NCBI GenBank assembly: GCA_023515795.1 | Contig: JALGPX010000091.1 | Span: 1-47,156, forward strand | Length of the DNA stretch: 47,156 nt | Reading direction: 5' to 3' | DNA from: Amoeboaphelidium occidentale | Lineage: Eukaryota | Part shown: positions 1 through 1,757 of the stretch, in pieces | Position numbering within the stretch: position 1 is the first letter of the stretch | Layout of the letters: each line of letters begins with the position of its first letter | Program-made: the position numbers and the translations under genes | Notes under the pieces: model-generated | Databases searched by the model: none | What the model saw: the letters and a program-made list of their open reading frames with translations, nothing else | Told to the model about the DNA's origin: nothing

Positions 1-1591
1 GACAAATTGCCAAGTATATGTTTCTACAACTCTTTGGGGACGAGTACACAGATGGGCGAGGCATTTGTTGGAGATTAAATTACCGGCTGTTTTCAAAAAC
101 TGTGCCCGAAGCAAAGCAGCTGCTACTTATTTAATTTCATGTCTTCTATACGAAGAACCATCAGAAAAAGAACGCAAGAGACCCTCTCTTCAAAAAAAAT
201 TACTGGAGTTCTGCAAGAAGGTCTGGAACAAGAACTATATTTGGCTTTGATCGAAGTTTATTCGATTCTACTACGACATACTCATTGTGCCGGACTGCAT
301 TTAAATAGTGCTACTGTCAAGAAGAATTGGGATCGCTATTTCGGATTAATGTGGGTAATCCTGAGACATTTCGAAGAATATGGACCAAAAGACTGTGAAA
401 GTAGAGCCCAAGAACAGAGGCGTAGAAGGGGCTTACAATTATTTAACGTAGTTCCCTTGGCTCAAATTCAAAACGGTTTTGTGACTTTTGATACAAGTGG
501 GCTCTACGAGTTGACAAGGAACTTGAATATAAACTCAAAGAATAATCCTCTGCAGTCCGCATCTACTAATATTCAACAACAACCTAAAAATTACGTCAGT
601 CCTGTTCAGGGGTTTCTGGCCAATGCGGAGGAAGAATGGAGAAAGGTTCTGCGTTTAAAGAGAGTTGTTCCTAAAAATCGGTCTTTCAGCTATTCAATAA
701 GTACTGATGGCATCTCGCTACATTTGAACTTGAAAAAAACAGATTGAAAAAACAGAGTCTACTATAGATGAGTTTGGATACAAAACAGATGACTCCAAGG
801 AATACGTTCCAGTGGATTTAAAGGATAGGACTGTAGTTGGTATTGATCCAAACAGACAGGACTTGTTTATGGCGTATGATGGTAAACAGAAGTTTCAGGT
901 TACTGGTAAAGAATGGAGATATATGTCGGGTATTACAGCAGCAAAGAAGAAACGAGAGAATTGGTTGAAGAAACGAAATGACATTGTGAATGCAAATTCC
1001 AATGTACCTACATCAAAGGTATCCCATGTTTCGGATCTACATAATCATTTCTTTTATCTCTTTGCTCATTTGAATTTATGGTTTGACTTTTATGGTTCCA
1101 GGCAATGGAGGCAGTTGCGAAAGAGATCAAGTATCAAACGACAACAAGCTCTTGATTTAATAGTGAATCGGATTATTGGAAAAGTTGAGAGGAAATGTTA
1201 TCTTGGTCACAAAGGAGTTAATGCTAAGCAAAGCCGGTCATACAATAATGTGTTTGTTGCTTTTGGTGGTGGTCAGTTTAGTAGTACTTCTCGTGGACAT
1301 CATCCGATTCCTAGGCGTTCTTTGATCAACGCATTGAAACAGAGAAAGATTCCCATGAGACTTGTTGATGAGTTCAGAACAAGCATGCTTTGTTGTAAAT
1401 GCAAGGAACCGTTACCAAAGAGGGGAATGTGGAACGTGAAACGATGTGATAATTGCAACATCTTTTGGAACAGAGATGTCAATGCTGCAGTGAACATCAG
1501 AGAAGTTTCCATCTCAGTGAATGCATCCAATGGAGTCAGACCAGGAAAATTCTCAAGATCATACAAATTTTGTAGCTCTACCAAAGCTTAA
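1..1591 (+). pseudogene. Fanzor1 (TnpB-like RNA-guided RuvC endonuclease), 5'-truncated by the window, two frameshifts
   Basis: RuvC-I VVGIDPN (D at 845), RuvC-II VDEFRTS (E at 1370), Zn-finger CCKC...CDNC, RuvC-III WNRDVNAAVNI (D at 1475). Upstream Fanzor1-type motifs: FNVVP...FVTFDTSGL, FSYSISTDG, VAFGGGQF...G...P. The frame runs 2 (2-~199), 1 (~200-733), 2 (734-1591), with switches at A8 (192-199, position inferred) and A7 (733-739). Confidence 0.9.
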
Positions 1592-1715
1592 TTGCGGAGG
1601 GTCTTACGGAGTACATTGCTATTTTATAGCGTTTGTTACATATACCGAGTTGAGTGATTGGGATTCCGCGTATTTCAGTCTAGTGCTGAATAACGTAGCA
1701 CAAAAGTGCTGATTA
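1592..1715 (+). ncRNA. Candidate Fanzor omegaRNA scaffold / element right end
   Basis: Directly after the Fanzor stop. Nested pairings TGCGGA(1593-98)/TCCGCG(1665-70), GTCTTA(1601-06)/TGGGAT(1659-64), CGG/CCG, GCTAT-TTT-ATAGC (1618-30). Then hairpins TTCAG..CTGAA (1674-1690) and AGCAC-AAAA-GTGCT (1697-1710). Boundaries are approximate. Confidence 0.65.
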
Positions 1716-1757
1716 CTTAAACTCCAAGCAAAAAAAACGTTTTCATCAAAGTTCAAT

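What the first reader, a model, noticed from the sequence alone, without database searches (positions are those of the whole stretch)
1..1720. Fanzor1 RNA-guided nuclease locus with intact catalytic triad
Seen: D-E-D RuvC motifs, CxxC..CxxC finger, Fanzor1-type TDG and F..G...P motifs, no introns, and a structured non-coding tail. Known: Fanzors are eukaryotic TnpB descendants that are programmable through a 3' omegaRNA. Inference: this is a recently active member from a poorly sampled compact-genome lineage, and a functional protein could be rebuilt by correcting two single-base indels.
Basis: partly seen in the sequence, partly recalled or inferred. Interest (0 to 1): 0.9.

Follow-up and report, generated by a model that had tools for sequence, protein, structure and literature searches.

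The report
Broken copy of catalogued Fanzor1 nuclease
This is a frameshifted, cut-off copy of a Fanzor1 gene, a known kind of RNA-guided DNA cutter, from a multi-copy jumping element in the aphelid Amoeboaphelidium occidentale; the gene is already listed in a published Fanzor table, and the folded tail behind it is likely the guide-RNA scaffold.

Summary
The Fanzor1 call holds, but this copy is broken and already catalogued. Three frames (2-220, 223-738, 734-1591) carry TDG, D-E-D and the four-cysteine finger. An alignment profile and a sister's model both match solved Fanzor1 structures best. The locus's gene model, KAI3657916.1, is in Yoon 2023 Table S2, and two sisters are labelled FZ1 in Saito 2023.

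- Break 1 is a 4-nt deletion relative to sisters, not a single base.
- About 200-230 N-terminal codons and the left end lie beyond the contig end.
- 17 of 530 residues are private to this copy, some at conserved columns, so mending the frames may not restore activity.

Added here: copies share sequence to 1724, where a predicted three-way stem closes (z -4.5, start chosen afterwards), the likely omegaRNA. An RNA-like run covers related copies.

A side find is more unusual: a ~382-bp, high-copy, TIR-less Fanzor ghost at 13886-14267, absent in two other runs, with ATAA at both ends. The scan noted ghosts on other DNA before, none in this genome.

The parts
2..220 (+). Frame +2 piece of the Fanzor1 ORF (helical, REC-lobe part by the sister's model); 5' part cut off by the contig end
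   Evidence: 96% identical to P0001 29-101, P0002 197-269, P0004 229-301; window is the whole contig
215..222 (+). Break 1: 4 nt fewer than sister copies (AAGA behind 217)
   Evidence: table 4 (X1 depth 919 of 919; X4 22.6 of 43.2; X6 31.6 of 52.4); sister proteins read FCKKKGLEQ
223..738 (+). Frame +1 piece: REC/WED part with the Fanzor1 TDG motif at 703-711
   Evidence: gapless match to P0001 and P0004; T, D, G in 65, 64, 68 of 69 outside-family rows
646..742 (+). 97-nt GT..AG 'intron' of public model KAI3657916.1 (P0183); likely an annotation device that bridges break 2
   Evidence: it removes the conserved TDG hairpin; the ten spliced joints shown in neighbouring genes skip 31-40 nt
733..739 (+). 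Break 2: run of seven A where sister copies have six
   Evidence: table 4 (one letter left out at 732/736/739 in X1, X4, X6 contigs)
734..1591 (+). Frame +2 piece: RuvC-I D 845-847 (GIDPN), RuvC-II E 1370-1372, C4 finger 1391-1456, RuvC-III D 1475-1477, stop 1589-1591
1592..1724 (+). 3' non-coding part of the element; 1724 is the last base shared by copies (right end ...AAACTC)
   Evidence: loose ends behind 1724 in 3 contigs each of X1, X4, X6; X1 unique contig starts at 1695, 30 bases into the repeat
1647..1724 (+). Predicted omegaRNA scaffold: closing stem 1647-1659 with 1711-1724, enclosing two to three hairpins
   Evidence: z -4.5, 0 of 200 shuffles, lowest among 50 tiled 80-nt windows is -2.76 at 1641; variants 1656 G>A and 1657 A>G in X2, X4, X6 keep pairing (read against the structure)
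1725..1739 (+). Flank that would supply a ~15-nt guide (start uncertain, since Fanzor1 scaffolds include the target-site duplication)
   Evidence: inference from PMC10432273 and PMC10711439; flank differs among copies
13886..14267 (-). Separate element: 382-bp non-autonomous Fanzor-derived ghost of another family; no TIR; ATAA at 13882-13885 and 14268-14271; degenerate finger and WNRD codons
   Evidence: empty site (386 nt skipped) in X4 and X6

Best explanation
This is a frameshifted, likely non-functional copy of a multi-copy Fanzor1 transposon family of Amoeboaphelidium occidentale, cut at its 5' side by the contig end, with a predicted guide-RNA scaffold at its right end. How the family likely works (inferred from SpuFz1 and TnpB; no step tested here): the element makes a ~730-760-aa nuclease and a 3' transcript that runs past the right end at 1724. 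The last ~78 nt fold into the scaffold and the next ~15 nt of flank are the guide. The complex would cut an empty site next to a short TAM left after excision, and repair from a filled allele would restore the element. A transposase is presumably supplied in trans or from the unseen 5' part. Shown: the motifs, the two breaks, the truncation, 11 sister gene models, the shared end at 1724 and variable flanks. Inferred: that the breaks are real decay rather than assembly error, the omegaRNA, cleavage and homing.
For: Profile A1 (76 rows) against PDB: SpuFz1 E 5e-80, GtFz1 1e-59, PpFz1 4e-59, then Fanzor2 1e-14 and ISDra2 TnpB 5e-6. Model of sister P0001 (pLDDT 87): the top 7 Foldseek hits are all Fanzor1, TM up to 0.67; TnpB, Cas12f and Fanzor2 reach at most 0.31. 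Sister KAI3660383.1 is 1677 nt for 558 aa, so it runs unbroken across both breaks, and is labelled FZ1. 11 sister models exist. Single X1 contigs on the element have depth 870-1118 against 105 on the flank (only a rough guide to copy number). X1 shows 5 substitutions and 0 gaps against window 1695-13910, so indel error in unique DNA is low. There are no in-frame stops in the three pieces, and the third-position excess fits a lineage under selection until recently. X2 skips GT..AG/CT..AC introns in neighbouring genes and has contigs over the family's ORF and tail, running into flanks.
Against: No laid contig was seen to carry the window's own 4-nt deletion, and the copy lies at a contig end inside a repeat, where chimeras are likelier. 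The whole tail is not significantly structured, no Rfam family reaches its gathering score, and no compensatory pair change was seen. The left end, TIR, TSD and transposase were not seen. No full-length intact family member was found (16 hits among 1145 candidates), and P0001 has Tyr at the third finger cysteine. X2 is a related strain (about 2% diverged in flank), contigs give no strand or level, and it shows nothing about this copy.
Confidence: 0.88

Rival explanations
1. The copy is intact in the cell, and the two breaks are assembly errors or a chimera at a repeat-ended contig.
For: Break 2 lies in a homopolymer; the copy is at a contig end; scaffold gaps in this window are flanked by duplicated 101- and 142-bp stretches; X1's only contig over 217 has the unbroken form; no premature stops.
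Against: 0 gaps in 12,216 nt of X1 against the window; a 4-nt deletion is not a homopolymer slip; Logan contigs drop single-copy variants; about 66 of 566 X1 depth at 732 is not accounted for by the two deletion rows and may be the window's form (weak); private changes at conserved columns.
Confidence: 0.08
2. The protein is dead, but the tail is still transcribed and is loaded by intact sister proteins, so this copy serves as a guide donor like the ghost loci of Spizellomyces.
For: The terminal stem is intact and closes at the shared end; SpuFz1 works with ghost omegaRNAs (PMC10432273 passages); RNA-like X2 contigs cross the family's right end into flanks.
Against: No RNA evidence for this copy; no intact sister protein was found; G1662 differs from all X1 contigs laid there (373 of 373 depth), which fits drift.
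Confidence: 0.2
3. The public model is right: a spliced 451-aa protein (start 139, intron 646-742) is made.
For: GT..AG ends exist and the join is in frame.
Against: It starts with about 27 out-of-frame residues, lacks the N-terminus, and removes TDG, conserved in 64-68 of 69 outside rows. 97 nt is well above the 31-40 nt of neighbouring introns. One low-depth X2 contig (2.8) reads 707-913 unspliced in a related copy.
Confidence: 0.02

Closest known systems
A. occidentale Fanzor entries already in print: KAI3657916.1 (this locus; Yoon et al. 2023 Table S2, PMC10711439); KAI3660383.1 and KAI3661712.1 (FZ1 in Saito et al. 2023 supplementary file 3, PMC10432273)
   Same: The first is this gene's own public model; the others are sisters, about 91% identical over the C-terminal piece for KAI3660383.1.
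   Different: The table rows seen give protein, species and (Saito) coordinates only; the breaks, right end and RNA fold described here are not in those rows. KAI3657916.1 is not among Saito's 26 A. occidentale rows.
SpuFz1 / Spu-1 of Spizellomyces punctatus (PDB 8gkh, 9ceu-9cez)
   Same: Best sequence and fold match; DPN at RuvC-I, TDG, E six residues before the finger, WNRD; a scaffold of similar size (75 nt there, about 78 nt predicted here) ending at the element's right end; a multi-copy family with broken copies.
   Different: About 19% identity; longer protein with an N-terminal CxxC-GxxGH-R-SS-C knuckle in sisters; the right end here is ...CTC with no fixed TA, so not Spu-1-type ends; no activity shown.
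Fanzor1 in Sola2 or MuDR elements (Bao and Jurka 2013, PMC3627910)
   Same: A right end in CTC followed by variable AT-rich flank would fit either superfamily (end motifs recalled, not from a call).
   Different: The left end, TIR, TSD and transposase were not seen, so the superfamily is open; nearer metagenomic relatives sit beside pogo- or IS630/Tc1-type DDE genes instead.
For the side element: ghost Spu-1 loci (PMC10432273); MCi-5 of Mucor (no TIR, ATTTAT repeats; PMC3627910); CryptonS (same short word at both ends; PMC13565253)
   Same: Protein-less Fanzor derivative; short AT-rich word repeated at both ends; no TIR as in MCi-5 and Crypton.
   Different: 4-bp ATAA inside a conserved A-ATAA-A site, a 5' hairpin, about 382 bp; autonomous partner unknown.

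Membership tests
Fanzor/TnpB (Bao and Jurka 2013) | D-X(125-275)-[TS][TS]-XX-C4 finger-X(5-50)-RD | tested here: met
   D-to-TS spacing 177, then TSML-CCKC..CDNC, five residues, RD (my regular expression was mis-specified and returned none, so this is read from the printed motifs)
Fanzor (Yoon 2023) | RuvC-II glutamate six residues before the finger (E-alt) | tested here: met
   EFRTSMLCCKC at 1370-1402
Fanzor (Yoon 2023) | RuvC-I D-P-G (described as near exclusive) | tested here: inconclusive
   DP is present but the third residue is N; SpuFz1 also reads IDPN, so this is an accepted Fanzor1 variant rather than a strict match
Fanzor1 | TDG motif in the WED domain | tested here: met
   703-711; feature from PMC10711439
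Fanzor1 | Enlarged REC lobe and overall fold closer to Fanzor1 than to Fanzor2/TnpB | tested here: met
   the fold is that of sister P0001, not of the window's own broken ORF
Fanzor1 | Carried by a multi-copy eukaryotic DNA transposon | tested here: met
   11 sister models; common end at 1724 with different flanks
Fanzor1 | omegaRNA from the right end, with a terminal double-stranded stem and a 14-15-nt variable guide | tested here: inconclusive
   Stem predicted and closing at 1724; RNA-like contigs in a related strain; no small-RNA data
Fanzor1 | RNA-guided, TAM-dependent DNA cleavage | not testable with these tools
   needs an RNP assay
Active Fanzor1 gene (this copy) | Uninterrupted full-length ORF | tested here: not met
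   two breaks and a 5' truncation
Sola2 or MuDR transposon | TIRs, TSD of 4 or 9 bp, matching transposase | not testable with these tools
   left end is off the contig; no genome held; no close family member in the metagenome scans
IS607-type Fanzor2 element | Closest to Fanzor2; no TDG-type WED insertion | tested here: not met
   Fanzor2 9b0l scores E 1e-14 against 5e-80 for SpuFz1; TM 0.25

The most novel reading that the evidence does not exclude
Aphelid Fanzor1 proteins ride at least one undescribed, TIR-less transposon type that inserts into AATAAA (the polyadenylation-signal word) with a 4-bp ATAA repeat. That would steer copies into the short gaps behind stop codons of a compact genome. 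The ghost at 13886-14267 is its very abundant, still-moving non-autonomous form (absent at this site in two other runs), supplying a large guide repertoire; the broken copy at 1-1724, 33 nt from a neighbour's stop codon, may likewise still donate guide RNA.
Probability: 0.2. Interest if true: 0.55.

Novelty: already known. Interest (0 to 1): 0.2.

Why it matters
For the locus itself, little: it is one broken entry among dozens of catalogued aphelid Fanzors. The useful additions are a defined right end and a compact candidate omegaRNA (about 78 nt) for an untested family, which a tool-mining group would need, and the warning that the public 451-aa model is likely an artefact. The polymorphic, high-copy ghost with empty sites could be a natural system for asking whether Fanzor-driven homing maintains eukaryotic transposons, and which transposase moves TIR-less Fanzor1 elements.

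Tried and rejected
- No genome is held for the window, so copies, left end and TSD could not be collected.
- Metagenome scan with P0002: 88 pattern matches, 0 confirmed. Scan with A2: 80 of 141 loci kept, all distant (23-41% in the best segment). Viral scan: 9 distant loci.
- Pfam on 61 hand-picked neighbour ORFs (of 546 non-Fanzor ORFs of 130 aa or more): 5 DDE transposases (L001, L002, L004, L021, L086). This says nothing firm about this family.
- Inverted-repeat search: none in window 1500-1800 or 13800-14350 at 13 nt or more; the long arms in L001, L002 and L086 do not resemble the window's end by eye.
- The middle piece 139-744 alone hits nothing in Pfam or PDB.
- Rfam: 3 weak hits, all far below gathering score.
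- Folds of the ghost's 5' 80 nt and 3' 90-120 nt are not significant (z -0.9 to -1.8).
- Tandem sister models (P0017, P0019, P0181) were considered as a sign of rolling-circle arrays and set aside, because gaps in this assembly have duplicated flanks.
- The empty site of the main element was not resolved: X2, X4 and X6 match the window only from 1756 on, which fits absence of the insertion or plain divergence.
- Text searches Fanzor+Amoeboaphelidium, Fanzor+aphelid and A. occidentale+transposable elements gave 0 papers; the Jiang 2023 supplements gave 0 rows; Saito file 2 could not be read.
- No tree was built, and no complex prediction was run.

Full report
Observation. Positions 1-1591 hold a Fanzor-like ORF in three frames: +2 (2-220), +1 (223-738) and +2 (734-1591). 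The last piece passes Pfam Cas12f1-like_TNB (42.7 bits, cut-off 26.3), and its best PDB matches are PpFz1 and SpuFz1. It has 1029 relatives at E 0.001 or better among 1.84 billion representatives.

Source. Two window-encoded proteins lie on an NCBI contig of 47156 bases. The locus's own gene model, P0183, is KAI3657916.1 (MP638_003553, Amoeboaphelidium occidentale) on a contig of that length. So the window is a whole contig and the gene is cut by its end. Sisters P0002 and P0004 have 196 and 228 residues before the first window codon. These include a basic start and a CxxC-GxxGH-R-SS-C knuckle. That aphelids parasitise algae is recalled, not from a call.

Family assignment. A profile of alignment A1 (76 rows) scores SpuFz1 at E 5e-80, GtFz1 1e-59 and PpFz1 4e-59, then Fanzor2 1e-14 and ISDra2 TnpB 5e-6. 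The AlphaFold model of sister P0001 (pLDDT 87) has seven Fanzor1 chains as its top Foldseek hits (TM 0.54-0.67); nothing else listed exceeds 0.31. E-alt and TDG, described as Fanzor and Fanzor1 marks in PMC10711439, are met. RuvC-I reads DPN, as in SpuFz1, not DPG.

Already in print. Yoon et al. 2023 Table S2 lists KAI3657916.1 as a Fanzor HMM hit, among 112 Amoeboaphelidium rows, and 4 of 6 sisters that I asked for. Saito et al. 2023 file 3 has 26 A. occidentale rows: 21 FZ1, 3 FZ2 and 2 unlabelled. It lists 2 of the same 6 sisters, both FZ1, but not this locus. Three full-text searches found no paper discussing them. Saito file 2 could not be read and may bear on this.

The breaks. Sister KAI3660383.1 spans 1677 nt for 558 aa, so it runs without introns across both breaks. 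Contigs of runs X1, X4 and X6 have AAGA behind 217, so break 1 is a 4-nt deletion; break 2 is one extra A in 733-739. X1 differs from window 1695-13910 by 5 substitutions and no gap, so random indel error is an unlikely cause; X1 may be the window's own source and is not independent. Against this, no laid contig was seen with the window's 4-nt deletion. The public model bridges break 2 with a 97-nt intron (646-742) that removes TDG (T, D, G in 65, 64, 68 of 69 outside rows). The ten spliced joints shown in neighbouring genes skip 31-40 nt, so that intron is likely an artefact.

Age and state. Eleven sister models exist in the same assembly. Of 34 differences from X1 that one search listed (the table shows 40 of 468 rows across runs), 20 are at third positions (p=0.002) and 18 of 32 codons are silent. 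The lineage was therefore under purifying selection until recently, and no piece has an in-frame stop. But 17 of 530 residues occur in no sister unit (12 proteins compared), including K/R to Q (59 of 67 outside rows K/R, none Q) and F to S (43 of 65 F). Restoring the frames alone may not give an active enzyme. No full-length intact member was found, and P0001 has Tyr at the third finger cysteine.

Right end and RNA. Three contigs each in X1, X4 and X6 leave the window's sequence after 1724. The whole tail folds no better than shuffles (z -1.44). The last 80 nt fold with z -4.5 (0 of 200), and the closing stem pairs G1647 with C1724. The 3' limit came from the copy data; the 5' limit was chosen after looking. 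Two variants in X2, X4 and X6 (1656, 1657) keep pairing by one-sided change; no compensatory change was seen. SpuFz1 uses a 75-nt scaffold plus a 14-15-nt guide (PMC10432273), and Fanzor1 scaffolds end in a stem and include the TSD (PMC10711439; PMC13565253). Run X2 skips introns in neighbouring genes, so it behaves as RNA. Its contigs cover related copies of the ORF and tail and run into flanks; strand and level cannot be read, and it is another strain.

Mechanism (inferred). Intact members would make a nuclease that loads the right-end RNA, cuts the empty site beside a TAM and promotes restoration of the element, as proposed for OMEGA systems (PMC13565253 passages). This copy likely makes no nuclease; it may still give guide RNA. 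The transposon superfamily is open. The end ...CTC would fit Sola2 or MuDR (recalled end motifs). Five of 61 neighbour ORFs of distant relatives are DDE transposases.

Side element. A second Fanzor remnant of another family lies at 13886-14267 on the minus strand (63% identity to P0033 over 54 residues, one stop). Summed X1 contig depth there is 5,090-11,337 against 105. Copies share sequence from 13881 (6, 5 and 2 contigs in X1, X4, X6) to 14272 (15, 5, 11 and 17 contigs in X1, X2, X4, X6). X4 and X6 hold the empty site, with 386 nt skipped. ATAA stands at both ends (the tool counts 3 shared letters at the joint, the window shows 4), inside A-ATAA-A, and there is no TIR. Ghost loci are known and this scan noted others on other DNA, none in this genome. 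The TIR-less ends recall MCi-5 (PMC3627910) and CryptonS.

Papers seen. PMC3627910: parts 1-4 of 7. PMC10711439: parts 2-5 of 7 and supplement rows. PMC10432273: passages and supplement file 3 rows. PMC10530073: passages and a supplement search with no hit. PMC11423790: passages and section 5. PMC13565253: passages. Other papers: search listing only.

Verdict. A real, broken, already catalogued Fanzor1; interest 0.2.

Noticed in passing
window 13886-14267 (-): High-copy, TIR-less Fanzor ghost with ATAA at both ends inside a conserved A-ATAA-A site; empty site in runs X4 and X6; sits just behind the stop of ORF 12711-13880 and 45 nt behind the stop of the opposite gene (14313). Worth its own follow-up.
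   Followed up: partly
window 199-339: 24 of the listed differences from the X1 majority form fall in these 141 nt, against 3 in 1-198; part of the peptide (LHLNSATVKKNWDRYF) is shared with P0004 and nearly with the second unit of P0017. This suggests mosaic copies by gene conversion or assembly chimerism.
   Followed up: partly
window 1725-1755: Runs X2, X4 and X6 match the window only from 1756, just past the neighbour's stop codon (1758); the 31 nt between the element end and that point have no counterpart seen in them.
   Followed up: partly
window 24229-24441 and 43694-43998: N gaps (11 and 21 nt) flanked by 99%-identical 101- and 142-bp duplications: scaffolding artefacts, which may also explain tandem sister models P0017, P0019 and P0181.
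   Followed up: partly
window 1724 and 14236, run X1: One X1 contig (depth 108) links the main family's right end with the ghost's left-end region; the letters between are not known.
   Followed up: no
window 22207-22333 and 22433-22561: Local 130-bp direct repeat, 84% identical, between two genes.
   Followed up: no
window 42320-42416 and 44070-44164: Inverted 100-bp similarity, 74%, between ORF 41947-43344 and a broken minus-strand paralog-like stretch.
   Followed up: no
window 3850-14581: Introns of neighbouring genes are very short, 31-40 nt (ten joints in run X2).
   Followed up: no
L001:131-4077: Close non-family relative (contig length equals that of P0032): pogo/Tc5-type DDE gene directly before an open 814-codon Fanzor1 frame, between 32-nt inverted arms; apparently a whole autonomous element.
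   Followed up: partly
Saito 2023 file 3, rows KAI3658238.1 and KAI3661525.1: Two A. occidentale entries begin with a long N-terminal region that looks like an XPG/PIN-type nuclease (recalled resemblance, not tested).
   Followed up: no
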